Positions 1 to 27,900 of a DNA stretch of 64,000 nt are shown one piece after another (the stretch's first letter is position 1; the number at the start of each line of letters is the position of its first letter). The notes beneath the pieces are model-generated. The model saw only the letters and a list, made by a program, of their open reading frames with translations, searched no databases and had not been told where the DNA came from. This stretch comes from Microbotryum violaceum (lineage: Eukaryota), in contig CDLV01000009.1 in NCBI GenBank assembly GCA_001244265.2, positions 992,001 to 1,056,000 of the forward strand. Direction: 5' to 3'. The position numbers were made by a program, and so were the translations under genes.

Positions 1-1054
1 GTTCCTGTTTGTGGGTAGATGAGTCGGAAGGACCGTCCAACACCTATTCAACAGAGCCGGGAGGCAGCGAACTGCTTTCACGCCGAGGCCACACCATAAA
101 CTTTTCACTGGACTTCGGCAGGGCCTATTTCACAGCCGGTCCGTGCGTGCCCAGTGAGCGTAGCGTGAGAAGCATGGAATGACACTGCGCCGAGGACGCC
201 GCCCCGATGTCTCAGCTTCACTGGAGCGTGTCTTACTTTGTCGGGATCCGCAGGCTACGGGACCCAGCTCGGCCAGGGCCAAAACGTGACCGCGGGTGAG
301 TGGTTGTTGTAGATTATTATAAAAATTAGTTGCTTTCCCCGAATGGAAACTGTCGCAATTCAGGACCTACACCGGTCTGATGGGCTACTTACTGCTTCAG
401 GCACATGTTAGCTTGTGCCGAGAAATGATAATGGAAGAGGCTTGCTCCACGCAATCCTAAAGGCGGGAAAAAGGTTGCGCAGGCTGCGGGGCCGAGAGCG
501 CGAGAGGGGGGCCGGGCAGTGGGCATTGGGCGCTGGGCACGGCGCATGGCAGGCCGGCAGGCCGGCACGAGCGTCATCTGCTCCGTCACGGTTGAGCTCT
601 CACCCCCTTGTCACGAACATTGCACTTCGTCTGCGTGCTCACTTACCGAACCATAGGACTGGCCGGCTGCTCACCTGATCATTAACGGTCACCCTGATCG
701 TACACCAGCCTGGTGCGACGTCTCTTTCTGCAAGCAGCGATCTCTTCGAGGCCGACCATCACGTTCTGATCGCCCATTTGGGACCGACTTTTCGTCACCT
801 CGACCTCCACCTCGATTGATTCGGCGTCTGCGGTCCTACCTTTTCTTGGACACGAGATAGCACTCGTCCTAGCGCCACTCTCTAGCTTTGCCTCTCTTCG
901 TCGACCACAACGTGTGTGACTGCCATTCGTCTCACCTGTTTCATCCTACCACAAGATCTCGGCGATCAGATCGACAGTAAGCGGATCGAGCGGCTCAAGA
1001 GGACCGTGTACATCTGCACAAGCTCGAAAGCTCGAGTAGGCGCAAGTAGGAGCC

Positions 1055-4000
1055 ATGTCGAAGGATCTTTCAGTAGTATCCCCAAGGGCTTTGAGTCTGG
1101 CGGCCGTGTGTCTACAATCGACAGTGCTGGCCATCGTGTAAGCCCACGCTCTCGGATCGTTCCTGCCCAATGTGCTCGCCCGATGCGAGCGCTGCTGACG
1201 ACCCCGAGGGGGTTTTGGCTGTAACCTTTGCAGTCTTCATATCTCTCAAGCAAAAGCAAGTCCCGGTGCAAGGTCGTACAAAGCCTCGAGTGCCGTCCTC
1301 TTGACAGGTGAGTTGTACGCTCAAGCGGGCTCGACGATGAGCGAGGCTGGACGATCGCTCCGACATTCGCCAGCCGGGATGGCGGGCAGGTGGGCTGGCA
1401 GCTCGCCGGGCCCATCTCCGAGTAATACGAGGCGTTTCCGGCGTCAATCTTAGATGTTCCCTGTACTCGCACTGACATACACCCCGTCCCACCCTATTTT
1501 GATGTTTGATTTTTTTCAGAACTCGGAAAACTATTGCTCTCCTTGTTGCTGGCACTGCGGGACGTGTGGAAGGAGCGCGAGGCATTGCTGGCGCCTAGAC
1601 ACCCCTTGCCTTCGCCAGAGCTCTATTCGTCGGGCTACGAGAATGGCAAGGACAAGTACTCGCTACCACCGGATGCGGCGCCACCAGAGTCTCGTCGACA
1701 CACACTCCGGCGACGGAGCTCCGCCATCAGCCTCGACCTGCGAATAGAACATCACGAAAAGGTGCGGCGCATGTCTGGCAAGTCGGCGCTCGCGGCGTTT
1801 CAATGGCCTCGCACAATGCTTTTCCCCGTGCCGGATATGAAGGACTCGCCACTGCTGTGTGGTAGTCCCGAGATTGTGAAGAGGCTCAACGACCCGACTT
1901 TGTGGACGCGGCGCCGTCGCCTGGGTCTGCGAGCGATGCTCTGGGAGGACATCTTTGGTTCCGACTGGTGGAAGATGGGGATTCCAGCAGTGCTCTTTGC
2001 GGTGCAGAACAATCTGATGTGAGTCGACAAGATCCTCTCTATTTCGTTCTATCTAGACCTATGCAAGGTGTCGTCGAGCTCAACGTTTGTTCTTTGCAGC
2101 TACGTCGCCGCTCGCAACCTCTCCATTCCCGTCTTCCAGATCACGTTTCAGATCAAGGTGAGGCACCCAAGATACTGGAAGCGGAGAAAGGAAGCCGAAC
2201 GAGTACCAATACATGCTGACGCGTGCTCTTCCACTTTGGTCTGTACAGACTGTGGTCACCGCTTTGTGCGCCGTAGTGATGCTCGGCCGCCGGCTGACGG
2301 CCTTGCAGTGGGTCACGTTGATCACACTCGGTGCTGGTGTCGCCTCGATGCAGCTCGGCGCGATCCATGCCAAGTCCGGCGGCGACCCCGGCCACTCACC
2401 CAACGTTTCCGCTGAGGAAGATATGAACCACCTGGCTGGGGTGGGTGCTGTGCTCGTTTCATGTTTTGCTTCGGCCATCGCCGCAACCTACTTCGAACTC
2501 GTCATCAAGAAGCCCGCTGTGGTTCCTCAGATCCGCGAGTACATGATGGTCGCACCGCCGGATCTCAAGCCAGCGAGTCTTTGGATTCGCAACATCCAGC
2601 TGTCATTATTCAGCACCTTGTTCGGCATTGCGGTCGTCCTTGTGCAAGCCAGCCCAGCCCATTTCGCCTTCCACGGAGGACTTTCGCTCGACTTCAAGGG
2701 CACGCTCGATCCCCTCGAGCATTGGTACGATCCGTTCTCACTGGCGGCCGAGGGGTTCTTTGAAGGCTTCAACTCCATGACGTGGTTTGTCGTCGCGTTG
2801 CAGACCATTGGCGGACTACTTATTGGTAGGTCACCGACTCGTGAGATGCTTTTCGCGCAATGCCGCTGTTCACCAAGCTCATCCGTGGTCGCGTGTCTGA
2901 GTCTTCTTCGTAGCCCTCGCGATCAAGTACGCCGACAACGTTGCGAAATCGTTCGCGCTCTCGGTCTCGATCGTGTTCACCTTCCTGCTCTCGGTGCTCA
3001 TGTTTGACTTCCAAGTCACACCCTCGACCGCTATCGGTGCCCTCGCTGTGGTGGGATCGACGATGCTATTCGAAGTCGACCAAAGCGCACTCAAAGCGGC
3101 AATCATGCTCGACGGTCATAAACGAGCTGGCCCGCTCCTCCGCAGATGGCATTACGTCTTGTTGGTGGTGCTCGGGACCAGCTTCCTTGCGACCGTCACT
3201 CCACTCTCGCGTTTCTCCGTCACCACGGCGGCTTGGGACGCACTCAGCTCGCACGTCGACCTGTCCGCTTCATCAACGCAGCCGACAATCGCCATCGCCG
3301 ACATGGCCCACATCAACGCGTACCTTGCGAGGGGCGCTGGTTCGGGCGAAGGGGAATGCGATTGGGGCTTGTCGCCCTTGCGGCTGTCAACACGACAGGC
3401 ATTCGGGCCCGCGATTGACAAGGGCCTTGCGGCTTCCAATGTTGTGAGTCAGTAAGGTCTTCAATGGAAAAGCGAACTATGAAATTGACCTCGTTAAGTG
3501 TGACGTGCTACATAGAACTTTCCGTATTACGAGTTCGAGACTGGGCAATACTCGCTCGACGACATTCTTGCTACACGCATGACTGACTATGCGCACAACG
3601 TCCCGATTCTCGCGTCACCCTCACCAGACTTCATTTTCCTTCCCCTCCTTTCGCTGTTCTACTCGAATCCGTGGAACTGCGAGTCAAAGTCTCTGCAAGA
3701 AGGAATCCGCCAGACGACAGAATACATTCGCGCGATCGTTCACAGCGTCGGCAACACCGCCTACCCTCGCATCATCTTGCCCATCGCAGGTGTTCGCTCG
3801 GACGTCGAGGACAAGCTCTTCACCCCAGAGCTGATGGAAGAGTTTAAGGATAGCGTTGTGGTGGTCTCGATTGAATCGGCACCCAGGAGATACGCCGAGG
3901 GGCTTAAATATCTGATCGACGTCCCCTACCCGACCTGGTTCCATCTCTCGACGACCCGCGCGGGTCGCAAGCCCGGGACCGACGACTACTTCCTGCATCA

Positions 4001-4844
4001 GAACCGACCGAACCTCGTCTTCTACACTGCAGCAGTGTCGCACCCCTGGGACGCCTCCGCGTCCGACCCGTTCAACGGCTTTGCGCTTCGTCAAGTTCTG
4101 CAGCGTCAGTTCTCGGACTACGTTGCACTCCCTGCTGAGCAGCAGACCTCGCGCGTCATCTTCGAAGACCTCAAAGTCGACCACAATGGCTCTGGGGATT
4201 CTGAGGGCTTCCATAGCTCGATGGCGTCTTCAGTGTTCTGCCCCATGCCCGCGGGTGACTCACCCACGCGCCGCGCATTGTACGAGGCCGCGCTGCTCGG
4301 CTGCATTCCCATCATCTTCCGCGAGCGCTCGTACGGTCGCTTATTCCCCTCATCCCCCGAGATCAACGACCTGTCGCGATGGACCGTCTACGTCGACGAG
4401 CACGAGATGATTGAAGGAGTCGGGCAGGGTCTGATTGAGCGCCTCGAAGCGATTCCCCCGTACGAGATCCAGCGTATGCAACGCCACCTCGCGTCCATCG
4501 CGGCCGGTCTGCAATGGTCGGTCCTTGATGAAGACCAGTGGTACCCACCCGCGCGGGTCTCCCGTACCAACCCGGGCGTCTACAACCAGACGAGCTTTTA
4601 CAACCATACCAAAAGCATCGACCAACAGAGGAGAGCCTCTCCGGTCATCGATGCCTTTTCTCTTCTCGTCAAAGAGCTGGAAGGAATCCGTGATGGCACA
4701 TGGCGAGCCGGTATCGCCCGGGACCATCGCGTCGGCAAACATTCGAAGCATTTCGGAAAGTCTGCAGCGCATCAGCAGCAACAAAATCAAAAAATACAGC
4801 AGGTCAAGCGCCAAAACACTCGTCGGCGAGCGGGGGAGCCTTGA
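1055..4844 (+). CDS. Nucleotide-sugar transporter (SLC35A/UDP-galactose transporter family) fused to an exostosin-family (GT47) glycosyltransferase, ~1049 aa
   Basis: Exons 1055-1137, 1234-1307, 1520-2018, 2100-2157, 2249-2825, 2914-3443, 3516-4844 (3150 nt, all GT-AG, phases consistent). Transporter motifs: SSAVLLTELGK, IPAVLFAVQNNLIYVA, FQITFQIK, LWIRNIQLS, GGLLIALAIKYADNVAKSFA. GT47 motif: SSVFCPMPAGDSPTRRALYEAALLGCIPIIF. Confidence 0.85.
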
Positions 4845-5588
4845 TAATCGCCGGCCTCGGACTCAGCCGGACTCAGCCGAGGACCCGTTCCCATGTTTCA
4901 TAAATCCAGTCGGTATGCCATGTTGTAATGTTTACCTAGGAGGAAGCAGTTCGCATCATGTCACTAGAACTGTCGTTATTCACATGCAGTACCTGCTTCA
5001 GTACCTGGATTATCTCTGTCATGATTACAGACCCACTTGCAATTGTACGGGTCCCGTCACTTACTATCACCCTGGCCCAAACCGCTGATTTGCAGTGAAA
5101 AAGTTGGAAAGTCGTGCACCCTGTCTTACGAGAGCTCACGCGCTCACGAGCGCCCCTGCCGGCCGCTGTGGGCACAGCGGCGCCTTTGTCCTGATCTGGA
5201 CCCTGGCAGAGCCGGTCGACGAAGCTGCGGCGGTGTCGGGTTACGCCCTGTCTGAAAGGGCGGCGCCACCTTGCGGTTTCCGCCAGGGCGCCGGTGTCTC
5301 AAGTAGCGCTTCGAGCAATAGCGATCACACCTCCGACTCGACGCGGACGCGAGCAGCCTTCGACCGGTCTCCAGTCAAGACACCCATCGTCATTCTTTCG
5401 AAAATTGATCCAAGAGTGGTTATATCTGCAGCGCAGATAGGCCCCGTTCCTTGTGTAAGTGAGCTCGCCGCCGAGCGAACATTTTACTTCAATCAGGTGT
5501 CCCTCGGCCGGAGGCTGGCGCTCAAGCCTAGCCCCGCCCAGTAGCGGTACAGGAGAAGCTAACAACCCTCATGATCGCTCGCTCCACC

Positions 5589-8723: not shown

Positions 8724-10771
8724 TTAGATCCTCAACTTCTTTCCTTTGAGTGCCCACGCGGCGCCTACCACGAGGGCGCAATACCCGATCAAGATGAGCA
8801 TCGCGATCGTGGTGCCAGTGTACATGCTCTCGATCGAGACGTTGACGAGACCGGTCAACAGGTTGGCCTTGGGAAGATTGGATAACAAAGTCACGGATCA
8901 GAACCAGGTTGGCATCTGGAAACGGCGCCTAAAGGCACTCACGACAAGGAAGACGAGCAGGCCGTTCTTGTTTATGGCTTCAAAAATGCCAGGCGCTGAG
9001 CTGGATCGCGTCGTCGGCGATTTGGAAGCCCAGAGGTGGACGCAGAGGTAGAGGAACAAGAAGGCCGTGTTGAAAGCCGCGACCCAGAGGATATAAGGGA
9101 GGTTGGCCTGTATGCTCATCCAATGCGACGTTCACTCTCAGCTCTCAGCCGCGTGTGGCTCCTGGACTAGGACGTACCAGCCTTCTTGAAACCTCGATCC
9201 CCGACCACCTCACAAGCACAAACAACGTCGACCAGATGATGGCATAGCTGCCCAACACGCTCGCCAACTTGTCCGGTTTCGAGCGCCAGACCTTTTCCTT
9301 CTTCTCCGCCAGCTTGCGTTGGACCTCCTCCGATGCCTGCGAGTCCGCGGTCGTGGTCATGACGTGGTAGAAATACGGGTCCGGGGGTAGGACATATAGC
9401 CCTGTACCTAGCCCCAGAAGATAAATCGCCAGGTAGCCTGTGGGGACCTGTTTGGGTGAGCGAAGGGCACGTGCAAGAAATGGTATACACGAAGCACTTT
9501 ACCTGGCAAGCTGACGAGCCCTTCCTTGTTCTGGGACACGAGGGACACTCTTGCAGCCGTCAAAACCCAGCTCGTCACGCTTGTTCGGCTTAGGATGAGT
9601 TGATGCACTACATCGAAAAAATGCGCCGACGCGTCAAGTCAGCATCAGGACCCCGAAATCAAAGGGTTCCGGACGAGAGGGTGTTGCGCACCAGCGGTAA
9701 CGAGGAGGGCCATCAAGGTGAATCCGACCTTGGGTACTAGTCTCTCGAGACCGGCTCCAAATACAGGCAATATTGCCATAGTGAAGAAAAAGTTCCAATG
9801 CACGCCGTATTCGGTGACGTGTTCCTATTCAGAAGACAAAAGCTGAGATCAGCACAGATGTCATTTCTGGTTTCCTCAAAAATGACAAGATAGCGTACCG
9901 GATAATCCACGCCTTTGACCATGACGACTCTGACCATGCCCAAGGCCAACAATCCGGCACTATGCTGGATCGACTTGAGAATCTCGTGCAGGACGCTCGA
10001 CTTCGTTTGTTTTTGCCGCAGGATGGGCAAGGCCGAGATGAGGCCAAGCGAGAAGACGAACGAGCCGACTCCCAGGTCCATCTTTTCGTAGGAAAAGTAC
10101 CGGTTAGACTTTGGCCGGAAAACGTTCCAAAAGAAAGGTAATGGACTGAGAGGATTTGAACTCACTATCGAGGTGCCATACGTCTCGGCCTTGGCAAAGG
10201 ACCTTGGGAAAATAGGAAAGTCGACCGCAAGGATACAGATGACGGTCATGAGCATCATGTGGGCTCGGTATACCGTCACGAATGGTCGATTAAAGACTTG
10301 GAACGAGGGGAGATGGGTCGACGAATGAGCGCCGGGTGTCGGCGTCGATCGCTTGGACGTCATCGGCGATAGGGGTGGGGACAGCGGTGTTGGCGGCAGC
10401 ACGTTCGAGCAGGCTACGATGCAGAGCACGAGGAACGCATTGAAGAGGAACGCATGCGCCGCTGCCAAGGTAAGAGCGAGCAGCAAAGGCACGACGAGTA
10501 CGAGGAATTCATAAAAGGGGGCCTTGAGGGATGATGCGGTGCGGGAGGAGAAGCGCGCCGAGACGATCGTCCACAGCGCGTAAGTGGTCTGCAAGGTCCG
10601 TGCGCGCGAGTGTTCAGCGATGCAAGACCGAACCTTTTACCGCGTATCGCGGGTAGATGTGTGAGACATGCTACTCACAATAGCAGTGGCACATACGGTG
10701 TTGATTGTTAGGATGGATCCTCCGGCCGAACCCGACACGAACTGCTCCTTGGCGTGCTTGTAGCCGCTCAT
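8724..10771 (-). CDS. GWT1: GPI inositol acyltransferase Gwt1/PIG-W
   Basis: [14 protein letters not shown] start; [76 protein letters not shown] motifs; C-terminus KGKKLRI. Confidence 0.95.
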
Positions 10772-11059
10772 CCTTCGTCGAGCGGTCGTGTTGGTGGCTC
10801 CAGGAGCTCCGTTCGAGGTTGAGGGGTCCCGAGAGGCCGAGCTTGTCGTGCACGCGCGGGTGAGACACGTAGGGCGCGTCACTTATTCCAGTGATCGGTC
10901 CATACTGCGTCCTGCGAGTATGCGCGTTGAACGACAGCAGGGCATGAGTGCGAGCACAATCATGACCGTGCCGGGCTACGAAGCGCGAAGCCCGGGGGGG
11001 TGGAAATTCACCATTAGCCCCCGAGGAGTGCGCATTAGTGATGGCGCTGGTCGGCGCTG

Positions 11060-11075
11060 ATTGGGTCTCTATTGG
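11060..11075. promoter_or_regulatory. Two CCAAT boxes (ATTGG on +) upstream of NDUFS3 in the GWT1/NDUFS3 divergent promoter
   Basis: TGATTGG (CCAATCA on -) ending 11064 and ATTGG at 11071-11075, about 100 bp upstream of the NDUFS3 ATG. The motif is short and could be chance. Confidence 0.3.
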
Positions 11076-11166
11076 TCTGATCGCGCCAGTATGCTGTGTG
11101 AGCGCCGCCTTGATCGGGCCACGCTTCTACGCACACCCACCTCTGATCACCGCCGTCGATTCTAAC

Positions 11167-12355
11167 ATGGCCTCTCTCGCACCTCGCACCGTTGTGAGGT
11201 CGCTGTCCTCGGCAACACACTCGGCACGCCGGTCCGTCGCTGCAGTCCATGGCGCTGCGCTTCGAATGTCGGCTGCCTCGTCCTCCGCCCCTGCGTCGAG
11301 GCCGCTGACCACGTCCAGTGCGGCCCGATCAGGTACGTGCCTTCCGTTGCGTCGTGTGTTCAATGCGAATCCGTTCAGCTCACCACCACCATTCCACCAC
11401 TCAGCAGCTCCGGCAGGCCAGGAGTCGCCGTTCAAGGAGCCGGCACCTTGCAACCCGAACGAGGATTACCTTGCGATCGCCCCCCAGCTGCAAGAGTTCG
11501 GTGCCTACCTCATGGCCTCGCTCCCGAAATTCATCCAGCAGACTTCGGTCTACAAGGACGAGCTCACCCTCTACGTTGCGCCGTCTGCGATCGTGCCCGT
11601 GCTCCACTTTCTCCGCGACCACACAAACACCCAGTACAAGCAGGTCATGGACATCGCTGGCGCCGACTACCCGAGCCGCTCGCACCGGTTCGAGGTTGTG
11701 TACCATCTCCTCAGTGTCAAGCACAACTCGCGCATTAGGGTCAAGACCTACGCCGACGAGGTCTCTCCCGTGCCCTCCGCCACCGGTCTCTTCAGGGGTG
11801 CAGATTGGTACGCGCCTCCTACGCAGCAGGGTTGATCGCGTAGCCGCATCATAAAGAAAGTCCAACGCTGCTAATCCCTTCATCCTCCCGTCGCCGTGGG
11901 CAGGTACGAACGCGAGGCATGGGACATGTACGGCATCTTCTTCACGGGTCACCCCGATCTGCGAAGGATCCTCACCGACTACGGCTTTGAAGGCCACCCT
12001 CTCCGCAAGGATTTCCCCTTGACAGTACGTTCACCAAGCATGTGATATGAACCAGTGCTAGCCATGCGATACATCTGCGCTGACCCGGTACGACCCTCTC
12101 TGCTTCACTTCCGTTCCCACTCGACGCGGAATCTGCGTTTGTACGGCATTTGCCGATTCACAGGGCTACACCGAGGTGCGTTACGACGAGGAGAAGAAGC
12201 GTGTCGTTTCGGAGCCTCTGCAACTCTCGCAAGCGTTCCGCAACTTTGAAGGTGCTCTTTCACCGTGGGAAGGGACGGGAGCCGGTGTCGCGTCGAGTCC
12301 CGAGCAGTTCACGCTCAAGCCGCCGCAGGAGGAGAAGGAAGGGGGCAAGAAATGA
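11167..12355 (+). CDS. NDUFS3: NADH:ubiquinone oxidoreductase 30 kDa subunit (NuoC-like), mitochondrial precursor
   Basis: Arg/Ser/Ala-rich presequence; [80 protein letters not shown]. Confidence 0.97.
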
Positions 12356-12851: not shown

Positions 12852-15483
12852 ATGTCGCCCCAAATCTCTGCCCAAGACAATAAAGAGCACTACACAGCGT
12901 TGAGTTCTTCCTCCTCCTTCCTTTAGCGGGCCGGCGTTCCCCGAGCCTGAACGCCAACGCTAACTGGGTACCGCTTTGTGGGAAATGTGGGGCTGCGTGC
13001 TGCGTGCTGCGTGCTGCGTGCTGCTTCGCCTTCCGAACCCTTCTGTGGTGATGATGGTGACCCAAGCAGTATCATTCTCGGTGCTGGTGTATCAGGATTG
13101 GGTGAGTATTCATTTCATCAGTCACTTCTTCCGTGGTCTTGATGCCGTGAGTGCTGACGGCGACTCTGTCCCGCACCGGCATGGCTCCCACTCTACTTGC
13201 GCGGCCCCAGCTTCCAACATCCAGATTGCCCGACGATTGGGTTTGACCGATGTCCTCTGCTAGTAAATCACCATTCTACTCTTGTTATCTCTCTTTGGGA
13301 TGATTCACTAATGTTTCGACACCTTTTATGCGCAGTGAAAAATCTGGAGACATCGGCGGCACCTGGAACCACAATCAATACCCCGGAGCCGCTTGCGGTT
13401 AGTCGTGCCCCCGATGGCGCTCCAAAAATTCAAAAATTCAACCTTGGCTAAGCTCCACCCGCGATTTTGGGGTGTTCCCTCGTCATGAAGGGGACTGACA
13501 ATTTTACCTGACATTTCAAAAAATGAACAGACATCCCCATGTCACTCTATTCTTTCTCGTTCGCTCATCCCCACAAGCTCACGACGCAATGGGCCGGACA
13601 ACAGGAGATCATGAGGTGTTCGTCCATCAGATTCTCCGTCCCACGGGGAAAGCCGCTGAAGTCTACTTCCTGTGAATCTTTACCCCACTTCTAGACTTGC
13701 ACGAGGTGCAAGAAAAATTCCACGTCCACAACATCTGCTTTCACCACGAAGCGAAGCAGATGCTCTTCTCCCGCGACACCGGTCTGTGGACGCTTGAGCT
13801 CAAGGAGCTCAAGACGGGCCGAACCAAAACGCGGACCTGCAATATTTTGATCTCGTGCGTCGGCGGTCTCTCGATCCCCAACGACCCTACCTTCGACACC
13901 AAGGACTTCAACGGTGACGTCATGCATTCGGCGCAGTGGAACCATGACGTCTCGGTTGTGGACAAGGACGTCGTCGTGGTTGGTAATGGTTGTTCGGCCG
14001 CGCAGATCGTCCCCGAGATCGCAGACAAGGTCAAGAGTTTGACGCAGATCGCTCGATCGAGGCAGTCCATCCTGAGGAGACCGCCCGTGCCCGATGGCGG
14101 ATGGATGGTCTTCATGCAGAACTACATCCCGGGAGTAAGTTACTCCAGTGTCACTCGGTGTCAACGCGAGTGGAGCAGAAGTGCGCAGCGTCTGACGCGC
14201 ATGATCGCGTTTCCGACCCATGTGAATTGCTTCTTACAGATGTCGTACCTGTTCCGATTCCTCATCTTTTTTCTCGGGGAATACGACTTTAAGGGCATGG
14301 ACCTCATCCGCGGGCAAAAGCTGCGACAGTGGGTCTCCAAGGACCTCACCTCGTACATCCGCGAGGTTGCACCTAAAAAGTATTGGGACGTGTTGGAACC
14401 CAATTTCGAGGTCATGGCCAAGCGTCGTGTGTTTGATGCAGGCTATTATAAGGCCTTGCATAACCCCAAGGTCGACCTGATCAGCGACGATGCGTTGGAG
14501 ACGGTCAAGGGCGACACCGTCACGACGAGAGAGGGGCGGAAGCTCAAGGCCGACGTGATCGTTCTTTGCACGGGTTTCAAGATCCAAGAGTGTACGTCCA
14601 CTTGCGAACATGAAAGTCTGCTCTTATTTTGTTGATACTCACCCTGCATCCCTGGCGTAGTCTTGTTCCCCCTTAAGATCGCCAATGACAAGGGCGAAGA
14701 TCTTGCAACCGTTTTGGGCTCAAGCAACGCCAGCAACTACCTCGGAACACTCGTGGCTGGCTTTCCCAATTATTTCTGGATCATGGGTCCCAACACGGCG
14801 TAAGGAAATATCCCATGTTCCGCCAACCCCTCGAGCCATGCGACATTCGGACCTGGCTCCTAATGCCTTCGATTGCCTTTCCGCAGCACCGGTCATTCGA
14901 GCGTCATTTTCACGAGTGAATGCCAGATCGGGTAAGCCAATTGAGCCAACAGTCCATCAGTGCTCTCTAGCCGCTACGCGCGCTGACACCGAAGGCCGTA
15001 CTACGCTCCTTCAGCATGATGATCAAGCTCATCAAGCCGATCCTCAAGAAACTCGAGCAAAACCGAGACGCATCCCCTGGACCGATCGTTGAAGTGTCGA
15101 AGCAAGCACAAGATGCGTACATGGGCAAGGTACGAGCGGAGATGAAGAAGAAGGTCGGTCCTAAACCTTGCCGTGTTATAGTTCAAGTCGAGTAGAGTGG
15201 TGATCTGACACACGCTCGCGCCACGTCGTCATTCAGGTCTGGGAAAAGGACGGCGGTGTGAGTTGGTATGTCAACAAGGGGACTGGTCTCTGCACTGCAC
15301 TCTACCCATGGTCAGTTTCTCAAGCTGTATCAGAATCACAACGTCAAGGTGAACGCCACCATGCCAGTCAGCACGAGCATGCTAACACGCTGGCGCCTCC
15401 TGATCGAGTTCAGGTCGCAAGTCCATTTCTGGCGCAGCTCCGCCTGGCTCAGCATGAAGGACTTCATCTACTCCAACTGCTAG
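12852..15483 (+). CDS. Baeyer-Villiger-type (class B) flavin-containing monooxygenase
   Basis: Spliced N-terminus HYTAIILGAGVSGL (FAD Rossmann), GGTWNHNQYPGAACD (BVMO fingerprint), FNGDVMHSAQW (FxGxxxHxxxW), VVVVGNGCSAAQ (NADPH Rossmann), DVIVLCTGF, GFPNYFWIMGPN. Confidence 0.9.
12992..13024 (+). repeat. (GCTGCGT)n 7-bp tandem repeat, ~4.7 copies, in intron 1 of the monooxygenase gene
   Basis: gctgcgt gctgcgt gctgcgt gctgcgt gctgc read directly. Confidence 0.85.
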
Positions 15484-15876: not shown

Positions 15877-16561
15877 TCAAGCCTTCCTCCTCAACGTCGT
15901 CTGATTCGCCTCGTCATGGAACGCGCTCCAGATCCCCCTGACGCTCTCGTTCGAACTCTCGACCTTGGGTCGTTTCAACGTTGTGATCTTACTTCCCGAC
16001 GAGTCGAGCAGCAGCTGCAATTTGGCGCCAATCGAAGGGGGTGGTAAGGAACGCACGCAGATGACTTTGTCCCGACCGTTGACTGGAAAGAAAAGAGGAA
16101 CGTCGGGGAAGAGTCGTCTCAGTCCAACAATCCAGACAGATTTAGTGAAGGGCAGCTTCGTCCACTGACCATAAACTGCTCTCAGATGGGGATGTCGGTT
16201 ATCGACCCTCTGCACGACCATCTCAACCCCAGGGTATCTTTGAGCGAACGAGACGATCGGCCCGTTCGCGAGAAACTCTCGCATCCCTCGGTTCGAACCC
16301 CATGTCTCGCAGTATTCGAAGACGATCTGTTTAAGATGAGGCGTTTGGATGAGTAGGGTTGGGAGGGTATCAACTGCCTGCGATGCGCAACCACAGAGGA
16401 GTCGCCGTTCGCAAAGAGGAAGAGCACGATGTCGACAGTGACGACGAGCAAAAGGAGAGGCCACAGGCTCGACATACCTTTTTACACGGCAACACGAAGG
16501 ACTTTGTTCCATTCGCGACGGGCACGGCCAATGACCGCCGCAGGATCGGTTGTAGGGACAT
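15877..16561 (-). CDS. MRPL51: Mitochondrial ribosomal protein mL43 (yeast Mrpl51 / human MRPL43)
   Basis: NGTKSFVLPCKK|IVFEYCETWGSNRGMREFL...HPHLRAVY|NGRDKVICVR...VESSNESVRGIWSAFH. Confidence 0.92.
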
Positions 16562-17254
16562 GGTGGGGCTGTTGCCTTGAGGACGATGCGGCGACGACGG
16601 TGAACGAGGGCTTCTCTTGGTGCTTCAACGGTGTCACAGGGGGAGGAGTCCGAGAGCGACGATGATGGATGATGGGGTTGGTCTTCTTGTACGTGAGTGA
16701 GTGTTTGCAGGTATGCGCAGGAGGCGATCGAGATCAGCTCGCCGTGAGCGCTGACTGTCTTGTCTTCGCGAAGGCTCACTCGCACGGACCACGCTGAGTC
16801 ACTCGTAGTCTTTGTATGGACAGTAGTGACAGGACCTATATTATGAGAAAGGGTCGAACATGACATGATTTGCATGGATTGTAATCATGAGTATTGTCGT
16901 GAAAAACGGAATGGCTACAACTTAAACTGGTTCGGAGCCAGTAACTTCAAGAAGAAGCTTTGCTGTACATGTGGACTGCTTAGTCGAGTCGGAGCAAAGA
17001 AAGGTAAAGCGAAACAACAGGGGACAAACACATAAAACAACGGCGACTGCGACATGATGGTAAACAAGCCCCCTGAGCAAGCAGAGAAATGGGATCGTCG
17101 ATCGACACAAGCTGGTGGAACTGAACAACATGAATACTGCTGAGGAAAACTTGGACGGGGAGAAGCGGCGGCGGCAGGCGTGGATTTTGCCGGGGATTGA
17201 GAAGAGAGACGGTGAACGACGTGATATTTTATGGTCTCGAGGCCACCGTAGTGT

Positions 17255-21479: not shown

Positions 21480-24256
21480 ATGAACAGTTACGACGCAGAC
21501 TCGTTTCATCGCCCATCCGCGGCGCATCCTTCCCAAGAGCGCACGCAGTTGTGGGGCCCAACCACCGCGACCACAACCCGGCCACCAGCATACGCACCGA
21601 CATACGCACCCGGTCCAGCATCGGCGCCAGCACCTGTCGAGTTCAGCCATCCAAACGGGCGATCATCGACTCAACCACTCAACGTTCATCGGTCGCAAGC
21701 AAGTGCACATCGACCAGAGGTCCAAGTCGGTGATTTTGGCGAGGATCCAGTGAGTGACGATGCCTCTGAGCTGGTTTTTGGCTGGACGCTGAAATTTGAT
21801 CTTACTGCGCTCTTCCGATTGGATTCCTTTTCCACAGCAACTCGAAGCCATACGAAGAGAGTCCGTACAGATCGAAAAGGAACGACAGGCTCGCTTTCGG
21901 GAGAATGAACAGGCGTTGCTGCGCACACTCGCCGAATCACAACGAGTGGACCAGCGACGGTCTGCTGAAGAAGCTCAGGCGGAGCAGCTGCTGCGGCAGG
22001 CGATGGAAGAGAGTCAAAGAGGCAAATCCCTTGAAAGGGAGGAAGAGGAGCTTCAGATGGTGTTGGCCATGAGCCTGAGTGAACACGAGTTCGCGACCAC
22101 GAGTGCACAACGTTTCGCCCAGCTCAGTCACATCTCCAACTTCATCTCGCCCGACGATTCGGCGCAGGCTTCAAACAACACTCCACATTCGCTCTTCCAG
22201 AACATCACCGTGGATGCATCAAACACCAATGGCCAACAGCCGGCTGCCCAACGAAATCCGCCCCTTCGTCGGGCCTCTCTGCACGATTCGTTCAGGAACC
22301 CCGATGAGCTTGTCAGCCCACCAGCGTATGCGCAGGGATCTCCGATGCTGTCCTCAACGTCGAAGGAAGTTAATGGGCTTTCGCTGAACCAGCCTTCGCA
22401 CCCCATTGACCAAAGGGCTTCCGACGATACTGTGGAATCCACGGATGGGGCCTATTTACCAGCACCACAGCGAGCGACCCCCTCGGTCCCCCCGTCACAA
22501 GTGCCGGCCTCGGCATTCTATTCTGGAGCAGTCGCTGGTGCAATGCTCCCGAATTCCCCACCTATCGACAGAGTACATACCCCCATGCACAATGCCTTGC
22601 TCCCGTACCCTGCACTCTCGCTCAGGCGGTCGTCCCACGCCTCGACCCCGGAGCTGTCCGATGGCCACAACTCGGTGCGGTTAAGCGTGCTCTCAACCAC
22701 CAGCGTAGCAGGGTCTTGGGCAAGCGAGGCCAGTGACGATACTCTTGACGACACTCGAGCGACAAGCCAATCCTTTTTTTGTCTTTCGGAAATGCAAGAG
22801 TCCCACATGGAGCCTGGGCCGAGCCAAAATCTTCCACATTCTCCAGCGACGGAAACGGGCGACGACATCGATCCTTTCGACGATCGCTTCGCAAGTGTTG
22901 ACGGGGACGATTTGGATGCACATCTACCGATGACCGCAAGCGAAGCCGATTCAGACTTATCCTTCGCCTCGAGCTCTGTCGTTCAAGATCGGGACATGTT
23001 TGACATCGCCCGGCGTATGTCCAAGCAAAGCATGTGGAGGCCCTCCCTTTCCATCGTGGCACCCGTTCCGTCCGCTCCTGAATCGGGGGCATCTGCGTCG
23101 CATGCTTCGGATGATCGAGATGAAGCTCCACCAAGTACACCGACACATCTAGACATAAGCAATACTCCCTCGGCCCCGATCCTGACACCTGCTCGACCAT
23201 CGATGTCCCGTAGCGCGTCGCTCGAGTCGGCTCTGCCCAGCAGTCCCGACGCAATGCATTCAGCATCAAGCTCGACTGACGCACTGGACGCATACCGAAC
23301 AAACCCCTCTTCCGGTGGTCTTGTCATCGATGCCACAGCGGGCGGTGTGGCGCTCGCAACGGAGGACATCGTCGAAGGAGTGCGGTGGGGCTTCGTGCCC
23401 GCGGACAAGCTTGCACAACATCCGCCACTCGAGCATGACGGCCCGTTCCAGAAAGCCGCACAACTTTCGACGTATTCTGATGAAGGCGCCCATCAGCGAC
23501 CTTTTGAATGTTTCGCCATCGAGGCGTCGAGTTGGCACCGTCTTCTGTGCTATCTCATGTGGTGAGCTGAAGCCTTGACTGCCTTGCCGAATCGCTCTTA
23601 ACACAATGATCCTTATCTTGCATCGCAGGTTTGGTCTTTCGCAATTCGAAGCAGCGCCATACGACCATGCGGCTCTGTCAAAAGATCGTCGCCACTTTGA
23701 AGTCAGCGTTCTGGTGCAGTTTTTCCGCTCGTTTGAGGACGAAAGCCCTCGTGTGCGGTGCCTCGTACAAATACTGCCTCTTGCCAGGGCTAGCGCGATT
23801 GACACGGCACCAACACGTAGGAGTCAAACCAGGTTCGACGCCTCTTGTCCCAACATCTCCATCCCTATCGAAGCTGATCCCGATCGGCCGCTTCGCCTGC
23901 CGCTCACATTGACAACACTGGGGTCTGCGCTCTCCAAAGCCCACACGATCTCGTCTCGGTCAGGTCGCTCGACTTTTGGAGCTCCGACCTCCCGCGGTGG
24001 GACGGTGATGGAGAAGACGCTTGCGTCCGCCGTCATCTTTTGCAAGCAATTGAACGGGGACTTTGCGACGGCTTCACCCGAGGCGGACGACTTTGAAAGG
24101 AGCACTTTGGAGCGGCTCAAACTTCGCGTGAAACGGGCCAGGGGCAAGAGAGTCGGCGTGCAAGGAGGTCGCATGGAAGGGGGCCGCGACGCCGTGCCGG
24201 AGGAAGCGAGTTTGATCACACCGTTTATCCTGGAGGAGGCAGAAGATGGGTATTGA
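21480..24256 (+). CDS. Uncharacterised protein with UIM-like ubiquitin-interacting motifs, long disordered middle and folded C-terminal domain
   Basis: Long ORFs joined by introns at ~21750-21837 and ~23562-23628; UIM-like EEEELQMVLAMSLSE and EQLLRQAMEES. Confidence 0.7.
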
Positions 24257-24963: not shown

Positions 24964-27900
24964 TCAAGCCGTCAGGTCGAAGCTCTCGAACCCATCAAAG
25001 TTGGCCCCGTTGAAGAACAAGGTGTAGTCGACGAACTGCCCTTGATCCAGGACAGCCGATCCGAGAGAATTGGTCGAAGTCGCGAACAATGCGTCGATCT
25101 CGTCCGACGTCATGGCTCCAGCTCTAGCTCCGGCCCCGGTTCCGGTTCCGTTGACTCCCACAGTCTCCGAGCCAGTGGAGGCCCCATCGTCCAATGTGTA
25201 GAAGCCACCACCCGTGGTGCTGCCGAGTTTCGAGATCGGATCGGAAGCCTCCAAGGTCGCAGGGTTGAAGAAGATGGACGAATCCGACTGGTGCTCCGGT
25301 GATGCGACGAACGCACCGGACGGAGTTGGGTCCGTTGCCGTCGACTCGGTGGCCACGATGCCAGTCGGTGCCGGCGTGGACACTGGCAGAGAGGTATCTC
25401 TCATGACCGGAGAGGGCGTCAATGGCAGCGCGACATTGGCCGGTGTAGTCGCCGGGGCGGTCGAGAGAGAGCGTTTACGTTCGTTCGGCCCGCTCCTCGG
25501 AGGTGGCTTCGCAATTGCAGCAGAGGCAGCTCGAGGCTTCTTGGGTGCGGCCGAAGCTTCCTTGGCCACTTCTCGCTTCCGCTTCGTGGTCGTCGTGTTG
25601 CTTTGTTTGAGCGCCACGGGAATTGATCCTGGCGTCGTGGCCGAGGTCGTCGCGTGCGGAGAAATGCCGCTTGTCGTCTGAGTCGGCGTTTGCATCGCTG
25701 GCGAAGTGACGTATTGGCTAGGTGTCTCGGGTGCCCCAACGAGTCCATTCGCGCCGGGAGTCGCCGCAGGCGTCCTGGATCCGCCGACACTTGCAGAAGG
25801 TGTTGACGCATTCCGGAGCGCGGGCGCGGGCATCTGCCCTTCCCAGTGGTGCGCTTGCAGTTGCGAGCGAGAAATACCTTGCTGCAGCGCAATAGTCGGA
25901 TCGACCGTCTGTAGACGCGGTGTTGTCGAGGAGGGACGCGAGTTCCCGTTGACCCCGTTGCCTTGTTGGGCCCCCGGAGTAGACGAGGGTGCGGCGTGGG
26001 GACTGGCTGCGTTCGTCTTGGCTGAGGGCCCGTTGAGGTGATTCGGGTTAGGCAAGGAAGCCATGCGGCGGAACGAGGCAGATGCCTGATCAGCACTTGG
26101 GTAAAGTGAAGAGGGTTCTGGCGTAGGAACAGGCCCGACGGGCTCATAGTTGCCGCCGTACCGGTCGGGTCGCGCTGGGCTGCCGTAGCTGCCCTGAGCG
26201 CCGTTCGCGTACGGGGACGAAGTATTGACCGCTAGCGGTGGTTGATTTTGCTGTGCCTGCGGGTCATTACCGTTGATAGGGCCCCCTTTGGCCGCGACAA
26301 ATCGCTTCGCAGGAGAGGGCGGGTTGCTGTTGACACCGATCCCCGAGGGATAAAATTCTGCCGCATTCAACTGCATCGTGGCGCCTGGCCCGGTCGGAGG
26401 CGACCGCCGGTTCGCCAACATGATCCGCTGCTGCTGCAGAGCTAAAGCTTGGGCTTGCGACGATAGTTCAGCAGATCTTGCGACGGCTGCAGTTGCATGA
26501 GGATACTGATGGCCCGGTGAGGGACCGCCGACCGGAAGTGGGGAGGGCCCGTGTTGTCGCTGGTTCTCCATCTGTGATTGAGCTTGCGCGTGCGAGTGGT
26601 ACGCACTTTGCTGAGGTAGCTCCGGGTACGCAATTTGTTGATGTTGCTGCTGCGGCTGCTGTTTCGACATGTGTGGCTGGTCTGGATGATGTTGAGCCCC
26701 ATTGATCAGACCCTGACGATCACCCGAGTACACCGCGGCTGATCCGTGCACCTCCATAGCCCCATTGTGCGCATCGAATCGCTGCTGCTGCTCGGAAGGC
26801 TGCGGGTAGGCCGGTCGCTGCCCTTGAGGTTCCAACCCAGCGTGTTGCCCACCTGGCGCTGGCGCCGACTGCGAAGGGTGCGGATCCCTACAGCGAGTGA
26901 AATGCCGAGGTAAGTTCAGTCGGCAAGCCCGTGATTCAACTGGACTCGGTCTCGTCAGACTTACTGCGCTGGAGTGGGTCGATGGCTCATCTGCCTCTGA
27001 AGTGGACCCGGAGGTTGCGTCTGTTGCATCTGCGTCTGATGCGGTCCAACCATCGTATTCGCCATGATCCCCCGCTGCTGCGGTAATTGACTGGCTTGGC
27101 TGGCGTGTATTGTCGCGTGTTGCTGAGGCGCTGCACCTCCCGGTGCCGAGTATGCGTTCGAGTTCGGTCCACTGCCTGAACGGGGCCCACCTTGACCTGG
27201 ACCATAGGAGCCACCAGGAGCAATGATGATCCGTTGCGGCGGCGGCGGCTGCCTCCCCGATGTCGGATGGGCAGCGGACGCACTTGGGTGCGGTGATGGC
27301 TGGCCTGCAAAGCTGCCCTGGTACTGCGCCGGTGGCTGCTGCTGCTGGTACTGTTGCTGCTGCGGGCCAGGTGGCACTGCGTTCACTCTTCGGGGCGATT
27401 GCTGTTGGGAGTTCACAGGCGTCGAACCTCGCTGAATATTCAGACCCCAAGTCAAGGAAGCAGACGGCGTGAGCTCCCACTGTCTCGAATCAGACGTGCT
27501 AGTGGATTTCACTGCTCACCGGTGGTCCACTACTGTTTCTTATACCGACATCGATCGCATGGTGGGACATGTCGACCAGTCCGCGCGACGACAGTGCGCC
27601 GTTGGGCCCAGCACGTTGTCGAAAGACCTCGTAAAATATTGTCCACCACCTGCGCAAAGACGACTCGGGTCAACAACTGGGGCCTCTAGTCAAGTACACA
27701 TGCCACGAAGGCACTCACTCAAACAGAAACCCGGCAGGCGACTCGATTCGCACGTTCGCTTGAGGAATTGTCCGGGGGTCGATCCCTGGCGAATTCCCGG
27801 AGGGGTCCGATTCGTGCATGCGACCCTTCCCCTTGTTCGATGCGGGATGAAGTTGACCCGGCCCGAGAGGTCTGATTGGTGTCGTCGGCACGTCGCGCAA

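What the first reader, a model, noticed from the sequence alone, without database searches (positions are those of the whole stretch)
1055..4844. Nucleotide-sugar transporter fused in frame to a GT47/exostosin glycosyltransferase
Seen: after the transporter's last helices (KYADNVAKSFA...VVGSTMLFE), exon 2914-3443 stays open through a short basic linker and one extra hydrophobic helix (WHYVLLVVLGTSFLATVTPL). It then splices in phase 0 (GTGAGT 3444...CATAG 3515) into the 3579-4844 ORF, which carries the exostosin motif. There is no stop or room for a separate promoter, and the GT47 ORF has no signal anchor of its own. Established: SLC35A transporters have 10 helices with a cytosolic C-terminus, and GT47 enzymes are normally separate type II Golgi proteins. 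Inference: the extra helix would place the catalytic domain in the lumen next to the transporter, forming one import-and-transfer unit with possible donor channelling for a cell-wall or extracellular glycan. I know of no characterised protein with this architecture but cannot search to confirm novelty.
Basis: partly seen in the sequence, partly recalled or inferred. Interest (0 to 1): 0.8.

Follow-up and report, generated by a model that had tools for sequence, protein, structure and literature searches.

The report
Sugar-nucleotide transporter fused to glycosyltransferase
This fungal gene really does encode one long membrane protein that joins a Golgi-type sugar-nucleotide importer to a sugar-adding enzyme through an extra membrane helix, an arrangement shared by a whole class of yeasts and smut fungi but apparently never studied.

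Summary
Window 1055-4844 (+) is a 7-exon gene. Its 1049-aa product is letter for letter the deposited hypothetical protein MVLG_01173 of Microbotryum lychnidis-dioicae. The critical in-frame junction 3443/3516 (72-nt GT..AG intron with six in-frame stops) is present in spliced contigs of two runs from two studies. Each contig spans all six introns. Residues 5-487 superpose on the complete 10-helix CMP-sialic acid transporter (Z 25.7). Helix 509-528 is an eleventh, extra helix. The GT-B fold, closest to exostosin GT47 domains (Z 17-18 versus 12 for other GT-B), already starts at residue ~553 inside exon 6. Exon 7 therefore cannot encode a complete enzyme on its own. The fusion is found in 31 of 31 long homologues; all 29 named ones are Microbotryomycetes. 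Sporobolomyces also has stand-alone paralogues that use the helix-11 equivalent as their own signal anchor. The architecture is visible in databases, but ten literature searches found no description. Coupled import and transfer is inferred, not shown. The donor sugar and the acceptor are unknown.

The parts
900..5051 (+). Stretch covered by one spliced transcript contig.
   Evidence: run X11 record 8 (3800 nt, depth 41, 0 other letters) and run X4 record 13 (3722 nt). No ATG lies in 600-1054 and there is an in-frame stop at 1037.
1055..1137 (+). Exon 1: start codon and TM1.
   Evidence: joint 1137/1234 in X11.
1234..1307 (+). Exon 2: TM1-TM2 loop and start of TM2.
1520..2018 (+). Exon 3: TM2, the ~125-aa insert between TM2 and TM3 (residues ~77-200, window 1591-1962; no Pfam match) and TM3.
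   Evidence: 0 families for 1522-2016; low pLDDT 78-168; joints.
1705..1722 (+). Conserved LRRRSS motif in the insert (residues 115-120).
   Evidence: R117, S119 and S120 in at least 90% of 26 sequences. A role as a phosphorylation site is inference only.
2100..2157 (+). Exon 4: TM3-TM4 of the transporter.
2249..2825 (+). Exon 5: TM4-TM8 of the transporter.
   Evidence: Nuc_sug_transp 5.2e-28, profile 121-205.
2914..3083 (+). Exon 6, first part: TM8 end to TM10 (to residue 487), the end of the 10-helix transporter fold.
   Evidence: Nuc_sug_transp 2.8e-11, profile 264-314 of 315; the CST alignment ends at model residue 487.
3084..3146 (+). Basic linker (residues 488-508), predicted cytosolic.
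   Evidence: mean K+R 5.8, net +3.8 over residues 485-510 in 26 sequences.
3147..3206 (+). Eleventh transmembrane helix (residues 509-528). It is equivalent to the signal anchor of the stand-alone paralogues.
   Evidence: KD peak 511-529, 1.76; helix 508-525; the R-R/K-R-W-H plus hydrophobic anchor is shared with P0034, P0036, P0037, P0040.
3207..3278 (+). Stem (residues 529-552), predicted lumenal.
   Evidence: pLDDT below 50 for 526-551; 33% mean identity.
3279..3443 (+). Exon 6, last part (residues 553-607): first strand and helix of the GT-B fold (PTIAIADMAHINAYL) and conserved C579, R587, G595.
   Evidence: strand 556-558, helix 562-572. (EXT1 and bacterial GT-B chains align from model 549-554). 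(invariant P554, C579, R587, G595).
3444..3515 (+). Intron 6: 72 nt, GTGAGT...TAG, six in-frame stops.
   Evidence: Skipped in the contigs of X11 and X4.
3516..4844 (+). Exon 7: the rest of the GT47-like GT-B domain, a C-terminal basic tail and the stop at 4842-4844.
   Evidence: Exostosin_GT47 8.6e-17; pLDDT 86; EXTL3 Z 18.2, EXT1 Z 17.6.
4236..4319 (+). Most conserved block of the GT47 part, FCPMPAGDSPTRRALYEAALLGCIPIIF (residues 848-875). It resembles the family's C-terminal nucleotide-sugar-binding motif; that role is recalled, not tested.
   Evidence: D855 is invariant, and F848, C849, P852, G854, S856, R859 and G869-P872 are at least 90% conserved in 61 sequences.

Best explanation
The gene encodes a single 1049-aa membrane protein of the secretory pathway, most likely in the Golgi. 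Residues 1-487 form a complete SLC35A-type, 10-helix nucleotide-sugar/nucleoside-monophosphate antiporter. A ~125-aa loop carrying a conserved RRRSS motif sits between TM2 and TM3, on the predicted cytosolic side. After TM10 the chain is on the cytosolic side. A basic linker and an eleventh helix (509-528) carry it across the membrane. That helix is homologous to the signal anchor of type II GT47 enzymes. The short stem and the GT47 GT-B catalytic domain (~553-1005) therefore lie in the lumen, tethered about 25 residues from the transporter's lumenal face. Proposed working: the transporter imports a UDP-sugar in exchange for UMP. UDP-galactose is the simplest donor common to SLC35A carriers and GT47 enzymes, but this is a guess. 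The tethered enzyme transfers that sugar to a lumenal glycan acceptor. Donor supply and use are thus held in 1:1 stoichiometry in the same cisterna, with a locally high donor concentration. Shown here: one spliced transcript and frame, two intact domain folds, the extra helix, and conservation across a fungal class. Inferred: topology, activity of each half, a shared donor, any kinetic channelling, and the acceptor.
For: Gene and transcript. The exon model gives 1049 aa, identical to the deposited P0001. Contigs of X11 (0 mismatches) and X4 (about 5% diverged; a different study) are spliced at all six introns, including 3443/3516. Domains. Pfam gives Nuc_sug_transp at 223 bits and Exostosin_GT47 at 58.7 bits, both above their cut-offs. 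A profile search of the PDB finds CMP-sialic acid transporters at 8.4e-38. Whole-protein model against mouse CST 6oh3: Z 25.7, rmsd 3.7, 299 of 304 residues, 32% identity, model 5-487. Exon-7 model (pLDDT 86, pTM 0.84) against EXTL3: Z 18.2 (282 aligned). Against EXT1: Z 17.6 (279 aligned). The best other GT-B scores 12.4. The fold is split by the intron: EXT1 aligns from model 549, and bacterial GT-B chains align from their first residues at model 552-554. Topology. Eleven long helices are predicted. K+R is 5.8 before TM11 versus 2.7 after it. Four Cys invariant in the 26-sequence alignment of fused proteins (579, 662, 849, 870) and the NQT/NHT sequons lie after TM11. Published 10-TM topology has both termini cytoplasmic (PMC6709370, passage read). 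Selection. 31 of 31 long homologues carry both Pfam domains. The transporter core is the best conserved part: 63-69% identity versus 55-56% for the GT47 core, in 22 non-Microbotryum sequences. The linker-to-stem region has invariant residues. D855 and the surrounding motif are invariant or nearly so in 61 sequences. Stand-alone Sporobolomyces paralogues keep the TM11-like anchor. This shows that TM11 is a type II signal anchor.
Against: There is no functional data of any kind. The Pfam GT47 match covers only profile positions 134-283 of 293. Identity to solved exostosins is 8-10%. The best fold match, EXTL3, has a GT47 domain that I recall (not tested here) to be catalytically inactive, so a non-catalytic GT47-like domain is possible. 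The whole-protein model is poor (pLDDT 61, pTM 0.44) and says nothing reliable about how the two halves sit together. Sporobolomyces keeps stand-alone copies of the enzyme half, so tethering is not required for that fold to exist. Whether these genomes hold another SLC35A carrier could not be checked, because no genome is held. The RNA evidence consists of assembled contigs, not reads. Contigs cannot exclude additional shorter transcripts or intron retention.
Confidence: 0.6

Rival explanations
1. These are two neighbouring genes wrongly joined: a transporter ending at the TAA at 3453-3455 and an independent GT47 gene starting at ATG 3579.
For: An in-frame stop follows the donor site by 9 nt and an ATG lies at 3579. 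Run X1 holds an unspliced contig over 3235-3729 at depth 3.4. The same run also holds introns 1 and 4 unspliced, so it looks like DNA.
Against: Spliced contigs in 2 runs of 2 studies join 3443 to 3516 and continue through all other introns. Residues 608-628, upstream of the ATG, are conserved (YPY, QY.LDDIL), and M629 is F/L/I elsewhere. A product starting at 3579 would lack any membrane anchor and the first strand and helix of the GT-B fold, which lie in exon 6. 31 of 31 long homologues are fused.
Confidence: 0.03
2. The fusion is real but only one half is active. Either the GT47-like domain is a non-catalytic lumenal module (acceptor binding, sensing or regulation of the transporter), or the transporter half serves merely as a polytopic anchor or localisation device for the enzyme.
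For: The Pfam match covers only the C-terminal half of the GT47 profile. The top structural neighbour is EXTL3, whose GT47 domain I recall to be inactive (for the match; the inactivity is recalled). The family is divergent, at 8-10% identity to solved exostosins.
Against: The donor-site-like block FC..P.GDS..RR....GCIP is invariant or at least 90% conserved over 61 sequences, down to ~20% overall identity. The transporter core is the most conserved part of the protein. It keeps 32% identity to mouse CST over 299 aligned residues. Stand-alone paralogues persist as ordinary type II proteins, as expected of working enzymes.
Confidence: 0.15
3. Both halves are active but not coupled through one donor. 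The fusion only secures co-expression and co-localisation, and the transporter feeds the general lumenal pool for many enzymes.
For: Nothing in the data shows a fixed geometry between the halves (pTM 0.44, stem pLDDT below 50). Sporobolomyces keeps untethered copies next to the fused gene, which suggests that the imported donor is available to untethered enzymes.
Against: The fusion has been retained across at least three orders plus one family of uncertain order, with the linker-TM11-stem region under constraint (invariant P527, P554). That is more than co-expression would need. This is weak, indirect evidence.
Confidence: 0.2

Closest known systems
SLC35A nucleotide-sugar transporters (solved: mouse and maize CMP-sialic acid transporters 6oh2/6oh3/6xbo, 6i1r)
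   Same: A full 10-helix fold: Z 25.7, 299 of 304 residues, 32% identity. Pfam Nuc_sug_transp at 223 bits. Family blocks QNNL.Y.A..NL and KYADN..K.FA are present (the motif names are recalled).
   Different: A ~125-aa insert between TM2 and TM3. The C-terminus does not end in the cytosol but continues through an eleventh helix into a 520-aa lumenal enzyme. The substrate is unknown.
Exostosin GT47 domains (human EXT1, EXT2, EXTL3: 7sck, 7sch, 7au2, 8og4)
   Same: A GT-B fold closest to these among 999 chains re-aligned (Z 17-18 versus 12.4 for the next). Pfam Exostosin_GT47 above its cut-off. Predicted lumenal location behind a single membrane-crossing helix.
   Different: Only 8-10% identity. 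No GT64 second domain. The anchor helix follows a 10-helix transporter instead of a short cytosolic tail. The family belongs to a narrow Pucciniomycotina branch: 23 representatives at E<=1e-30, and the next tier, at ~30% identity, is Mixia, Phenoliferia and Meredithblackwellia.
Stand-alone GT47 paralogues of Sporobolomyces (P0034, P0036-P0041; 530-591 aa)
   Same: 45-51% identical over 91-92% of exon 7. They share the RRWH-type anchor helix, PTVAIA strand, C.WG, YPY and catalytic-domain blocks.
   Different: They have no transporter and are ordinary type II proteins. They nest inside the fused clade (joint clade SH-aLRT 89; two origins on the tree). They lie 1-5 locus tags from the fused gene, so they look like partial duplicates of the fusion. 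The tree is quick-mode and the direction of descent rests on distant outgroups.
Non-covalent transporter-glycosyltransferase assemblies of the mammalian Golgi (SLC35A3 and SLC35A2 with MGATs; SLC35A2 with B4GalT1)
   Same: The same idea of pairing donor import with a transferase. PMC6453868 (abstract read) reports MGAT-NST complexes by FRET/BiFC. PMC11994309 (listing and start of abstract only) reports SLC35A2-B4GalT1 interaction.
   Different: There the partners are separate polypeptides with transient contacts. Here the link is covalent, 1:1 and conserved. A 2022 review of nucleotide-sugar delivery holds no passage on a natural fusion. This is PMC9368800, searched for 'fusion', 'fused', 'channeling' and 'channelling'.

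Membership tests
Nucleotide-sugar transporter, SLC35A type (Pfam PF04142) | Family HMM match above the curated cut-off | tested here: met
   223.4 bits versus 27, residues 192-483 as the best stretch, 2 stretches. Exons 5 and 6 match separately.
Nucleotide-sugar transporter, SLC35A type (Pfam PF04142) | Ten-helix drug/metabolite-transporter fold | tested here: met
   VIA Z 25.7, rmsd 3.7, 299 of 304 residues of 6oh3, model 5-487. Caveat: the model's mean pLDDT is 61.
Nucleotide-sugar transporter, SLC35A type (Pfam PF04142) | Both termini on the cytosolic side | not testable with these tools
   Inferred from the published topology (PMC6709370 passage). Here the C-terminus of the transporter fold continues into TM11, so the protein's own C-terminus is predicted to be lumenal.
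Nucleotide-sugar transporter, SLC35A type (Pfam PF04142) | Nucleotide-sugar / nucleoside-monophosphate antiport | not testable with these tools
   Needs proteoliposome or vesicle assays.
Glycosyltransferase family 47 (Pfam PF03016 Exostosin_GT47) | Family HMM match above the curated cut-off | tested here: met
   58.7 bits (whole protein) and 61.8 bits (exon 7) versus 33.4. Only profile positions 134-283 of 293 are covered. Paralogue P0036 matches 32-283.
Glycosyltransferase family 47 (Pfam PF03016 Exostosin_GT47) | GT-B fold closest to solved GT47 domains | tested here: met
   EXTL3 Z 18.2 (282 aligned, rmsd 3.8) and EXT1 Z 17.6 (279 aligned, rmsd 3.7). The next family scores Z 12.4. Model pLDDT 86.
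Glycosyltransferase family 47 (Pfam PF03016 Exostosin_GT47) | Conserved C-terminal donor-binding block (recalled as typical of the family) | tested here: met
   FCPMPAGDSPTRR...GCIPIIF is present. D855 is invariant and its neighbours are at least 90% conserved in 61 sequences. Its role in donor binding is recalled, not tested.
Glycosyltransferase family 47 (Pfam PF03016 Exostosin_GT47) | Type II topology: short cytosolic tail, one N-terminal signal anchor, lumenal domain | tested here: not met
   The anchor-equivalent helix (509-528) is preceded by 508 residues forming a 10-helix transporter. The Sporobolomyces paralogues do have the classical layout. This is the point of difference, so the protein is filed as a variant architecture.
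Glycosyltransferase family 47 (Pfam PF03016 Exostosin_GT47) | Inverting transfer from a UDP-sugar | not testable with these tools
   Needs an enzyme assay.

The most novel reading that the evidence does not exclude
The protein is a natural 'Rosetta stone' for the long-suspected direct hand-over of nucleotide sugars from Golgi transporters to glycosyltransferases. It would be an obligate import-and-transfer machine. The tethered GT47 domain would dock on the lumenal mouth of its own transporter and build a Microbotryomycetes-specific wall or extracellular glycan. The RRRSS cytosolic loop would gate supply. The Sporobolomyces stand-alone copies would provide a natural split control.
Probability: 0.25. 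Interest if true: 0.75.

Novelty: new variant of a known kind. Interest (0 to 1): 0.55.

Why it matters
It is debated whether Golgi nucleotide-sugar transporters feed a bulk lumenal pool or deliver donors to associated glycosyltransferases. Evidence in mammals rests on proximity assays between separate proteins (PMC6453868 abstract; PMC9368800 read only in searched passages). A covalent 1:1 fusion, conserved across a fungal class that includes genetically tractable yeasts and paired with natural untethered paralogues in one genus, gives a direct experimental handle. Fused, split and point-mutant versions can be compared in one organism. It would also assign a first function to a fungal GT47 branch. 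A 2021 paper states that the only fungal GT47 enzyme reported was from Cryptococcus neoformans (PMC8355462, passage read). If the halves share a donor, the fusion would tie a transporter of unknown specificity to a defined product.

Tried and rejected
1. RNA holders: no listed holder is on record as RNA. The kinds were guesses. X11 and X4 are taken as RNA-derived only because their contigs lack all six introns. X1 (unspliced pieces) and X2 (short pieces, one joint at 2824/2913) add nothing on the 3443/3516 junction.
2. Complex prediction of residues 1-530 against 553-1005 gave no verdict (score 0.00, controls not run, my alignment not used). This is no evidence either way.
3. The window's own genome is not held. 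I therefore could not ask whether another SLC35A carrier or GT47 copy exists in this genome. tblastn of the model against the window found only the gene itself.
5. The protein-atlas search returned no usable hit, and the Atlas holds no model.
6. The PDB sequence-profile search found no GT47 structure at E<=0.01, only three transporter sequences. The relation to exostosins came from fold comparison.
7. Neighbouring genes: 10 ORFs between 9740 and 33179 were tested in Pfam. They include GWT1, a complex I subunit, an FMO-like protein and an RRM protein, with no glycan-synthesis cluster. Only about 1 kb upstream of the gene lies in the window.
8. P0072 (1209 aa, GT47 at the C-terminus) was checked as a possible second kind of fusion. 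It carries an FMO-like N-terminus and is marked partial, so it is probably a merged model.
9. Donor specificity from binding-site residues was not attempted, because I could not recall the residues reliably.
10. Literature: ten searches gave no paper on this fusion, on MVLG_01173, or on the Pfam pair. Supplements are closed, so fitness or CAZyme tables that might list orthologues were not seen.
Full report
WHAT IS THERE

The region 1055-4844 on the + strand is one gene of seven exons: 1055-1137, 1234-1307, 1520-2018, 2100-2157, 2249-2825, 2914-3443 and 3516-4844. All six introns are GT..AG. My first set of exon ends was off by one to nine bases at three of the junctions and gave a broken frame. 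The corrected set gives 3150 nt and 1049 aa. ATG 1055 is the first ATG downstream of position 600 and has an in-frame stop at 1037. The product is identical, letter for letter, to a deposited protein. That protein is the hypothetical protein MVLG_01173 of Microbotryum lychnidis-dioicae p1A1 Lamole, a basidiomycete of the class Microbotryomycetes.

THE JUNCTION

Exon 6 (2914-3443) runs from the last transporter helices through a basic linker and the hydrophobic helix WHYVLLVVLGTSFLATVTPL, then 79 further residues. Intron 6 (3444-3515) is 72 nt long, starts GTGAGT, ends TAG and contains six in-frame stops. It must therefore be removed for the frame to continue.

I laid the contigs of four public runs on window 900-5100.
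- X11 gave one 3800-nt contig with no mismatch, spliced at all six predicted introns, including 3443/3516.
- X4, from another study and about 5% diverged, gave one 3722-nt contig spliced at the same six places. At three joints the tool placed the cut 1-3 bases off and listed the letters between.
- X2 showed only the 2824/2913 joint.
- X1 held unspliced pieces over introns 1, 4 and 6 at depth 3-4 and looks like DNA.

None of the runs is on record as RNA. I read X11 and X4 as RNA-derived because DNA would not lack the introns. Contigs cannot rule out additional shorter transcripts.

THE TWO HALVES

Pfam on the whole protein gives Nuc_sug_transp (5.1e-66, 223 bits, cut-off 27). It also gives Exostosin_GT47 (7.7e-16, 58.7 bits, cut-off 33.4; residues 725-905, profile 134-283 of 293). 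The per-exon results agree. A profile of 26 of the 31 fused homologues found only CMP-sialic acid transporters in the PDB by sequence, at 8.4e-38.

An AlphaFold2 model of the whole protein is mediocre (pLDDT 61, pTM 0.44) but shows eleven long helices. These are 10-34, 45-76, 202-225, 228-250, 256-281, 292-324, 349-372, 414-436, 441-461, 467-484 and 508-525. Re-aligned to solved chains, model residues 5-487 cover 299 of 304 residues of mouse CMP-sialic acid transporter 6oh3 (Z 25.7, rmsd 3.7, 32% identity). The transporter fold is thus complete, and helix 508-525 is extra.

A separate model of exon 7, built with 61 sequences, is good (pLDDT 86, pTM 0.84). Its nearest solved folds are the GT47 domains of EXTL3 (Z 18.2, 282 aligned) and EXT1 (Z 17.6, 279 aligned). 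These stand well above the next GT-B enzymes at Z 12.4.

In the whole-protein model, EXT1 aligns from residue 549. Bacterial GT-B chains align from their first residues at model 552-554. The first strand and helix of the GT-B fold (PTIAIADMAHINAYL, strand 556-558, helix 562-572) therefore lie in exon 6. That is the same exon that encodes the end of the transporter. Exon 7 alone encodes neither a membrane anchor (maximum hydropathy 1.44) nor a complete fold.

TOPOLOGY (INFERRED)

Published structures give nucleotide-sugar transporters ten helices with both termini on the cytoplasmic side (PMC6709370, passage on Vrg4 read). An eleventh helix would then put everything after it in the lumen. Three observations are consistent with this.
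- The 26 residues before the helix carry on average 5.8 K+R (net +3.8). The 26 residues after it carry 2.7 (net +0.65). These are means over 26 sequences.
- Four Cys invariant in the 26-sequence alignment of fused proteins (579, 662, 849, 870) and two N-x-T sequons (964, 970) lie after the helix.
- The stand-alone paralogues described below use the equivalent helix as the sole N-terminal anchor of a type II protein.

DISTRIBUTION

With exon 7 as query, and among proteins of 775-2210 aa, 31 of 31 hits carry both Pfam domains. The 29 that bear names are Microbotryum (4), 'Microbotryomycetes sp.' (2), Rhodosporidiobolus (5), Rhodotorula (7), Sporobolomyces (6), Phenoliferia (3), Meredithblackwellia (1) and Pseudohyphozyma (1). 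One of them is named 'UDP-galactose translocator, glycosyltransferase family 47 protein'.

The taxonomy tool places Microbotryum, Sporobolomyces and Meredithblackwellia in three orders of Microbotryomycetes. It places Pseudohyphozyma in the same class, with order uncertain. That Rhodotorula, Rhodosporidiobolus and Phenoliferia belong to the class is recalled.

A whole-length search gave the same set: 29 of 31 hits with both domains. The other two are Logan fragments listed with the transporter domain only. Their sequences nevertheless run through helix 11 into the GT47 part before breaking off.

An exhaustive phmmer search of 1.84 billion representatives with exon 7 found 602 proteins at E<=1e-3, 66 at <=1e-10 and 23 at <=1e-30. 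Ten hits from the next tier, mostly ~30% identical, were looked up, and eight bear names. Those eight are GT47 proteins of Mixia osmundae (2), Phenoliferia (5) and Meredithblackwellia (1). Mixia belongs to another class of the same subphylum. Within the reach of these searches, the fusion is confined to Microbotryomycetes and the GT47 branch to Pucciniomycotina.

NATURAL SPLIT FORMS

Among proteins of 243-774 aa, 15 hits appeared. Seven are named, and all seven are Sporobolomyces proteins of 530-591 aa with only the GT47 domain. Where both are listed, their locus tags lie 1-5 numbers from the fused gene of the same strain. The four sequences read have a short tail and a helix introduced by a basic W-H or W-R motif (RKRWH, RRWR, QRWR). 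The same PTVAIA strand and the C.WG, YPY and catalytic blocks follow.

I built a quick maximum-likelihood tree of 36 rows.
- 25 fused proteins cut to their last 560 residues. Left out: P0002 as mis-annotated, and P0009, P0013, P0014, P0027 and P0028.
- 7 stand-alone proteins.
- 4 outgroups.

The stand-alone proteins fall inside the fused clade with the Sporobolomyces fused genes (SH-aLRT 89), in two places. They look like partial duplicates of the fused gene. The outgroup branches are long and the support is moderate.

CONSERVATION

Against 22 non-Microbotryum fused proteins, mean identity by region is as follows.
- TM1-2: 69%.
- TM3-10: 63%.
- GT47 core: 55-56%.
- Helix 11: 41%.
- Exon-6 lumenal part: 35%.
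- Cytosolic linker: 20%.

Invariant residues include P527, P554, C579, R587, G595 and P610 around the junction. In a 61-sequence alignment reaching ~20% identity, D855 is invariant. The block FC..P.GDS..R....GCIPV is at least 90% conserved. Both halves look to be under purifying selection.

WHAT IT MOST LIKELY DOES

The best reading is a single Golgi-type membrane protein that imports a UDP-sugar and uses it through the tethered lumenal GT47 domain. I put the reality of the fused protein at about 0.95. I put both halves being active and sharing a donor at about 0.5-0.6. UDP-galactose as that donor is no more than about one in three.

Nothing here shows channelling. The stem is predicted to be disordered, the inter-domain geometry is unreliable, and the complex test gave no verdict.

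Three rival readings are scored in the report's rival sections: two separate genes (about 0.03), one inactive half (about 0.15), and co-localisation without a shared donor (about 0.2).

KNOWN OR NEW

Both domains are members of known families by HMM and by fold. The layout departs from the type II topology that defines GT47 enzymes and from the cytosolic C-terminus of the transporters.

The predicted proteins are public, so the architecture is not hidden. However, ten full-text searches found nothing on it. A 2022 review of nucleotide-sugar delivery holds no passage on a natural fusion among the six places where 'fusion' or 'fused' occur. A 2021 paper states that the only fungal GT47 enzyme reported was from Cryptococcus neoformans (PMC8355462, passage).

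I file the protein as a new variant of a known kind, of moderate to good interest.

Noticed in passing
P0002 and P0004 versus window introns 1308-1519 and 2019-2099: The deposited models of M. silenes-dioicae (1107 aa) and M. intermedium (1061 aa) carry insertions exactly where the window gene has introns 2 and 3. The spliced contigs show these stretches are removed, so the deposited models probably read the introns through.
   Followed up: partly
window 1705-1722 (residues 115-120): LRRRSS sits in the ~125-aa insert between TM2 and TM3. R117, S119 and S120 are conserved in at least 90% of 26 fused proteins, although the insert is otherwise only 39% identical. It is a candidate regulatory site on the predicted cytosolic side.
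   Followed up: no
Sporobolomyces records behind P0019/P0034, P0021/P0036, P0023/P0039, P0017/P0040, P0024/P0041: The stand-alone GT47 paralogue lies 1-5 locus tags from the fused gene in five strains. This hints at a small glycan-synthesis cluster or a tandem partial duplication.
   Followed up: partly
Mixia osmundae proteins P0063 and P0067: The two nearest GT47 relatives outside the class have accession numbers three apart (GAA95768, GAA95771). They may be clustered in that genome. P0063 is 1288 aa, with its GT47 part near the N-terminus and no other Pfam domain.
   Followed up: no
P0010 (Phenoliferia psychrophenolica, 1375 aa): This protein carries a ~330-aa acidic, low-complexity N-terminal extension absent from all other fused proteins. 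It probably comes from an upstream gene merged into the model.
   Followed up: no
window 9740-33179: Neighbouring ORFs hit GWT1 (9740-10636, -), the NADH dehydrogenase 30 kDa subunit (10966-11832, +), an FMO-like monooxygenase (13676-14632, +), an L51/S25/CI-B8 domain (15880-16884, -) and RRM (31899-33179, -). Long ORFs at 21793-23562 (+), 24967-27489 (-) and 27985-29571 (-) had no Pfam hit.
   Followed up: partly
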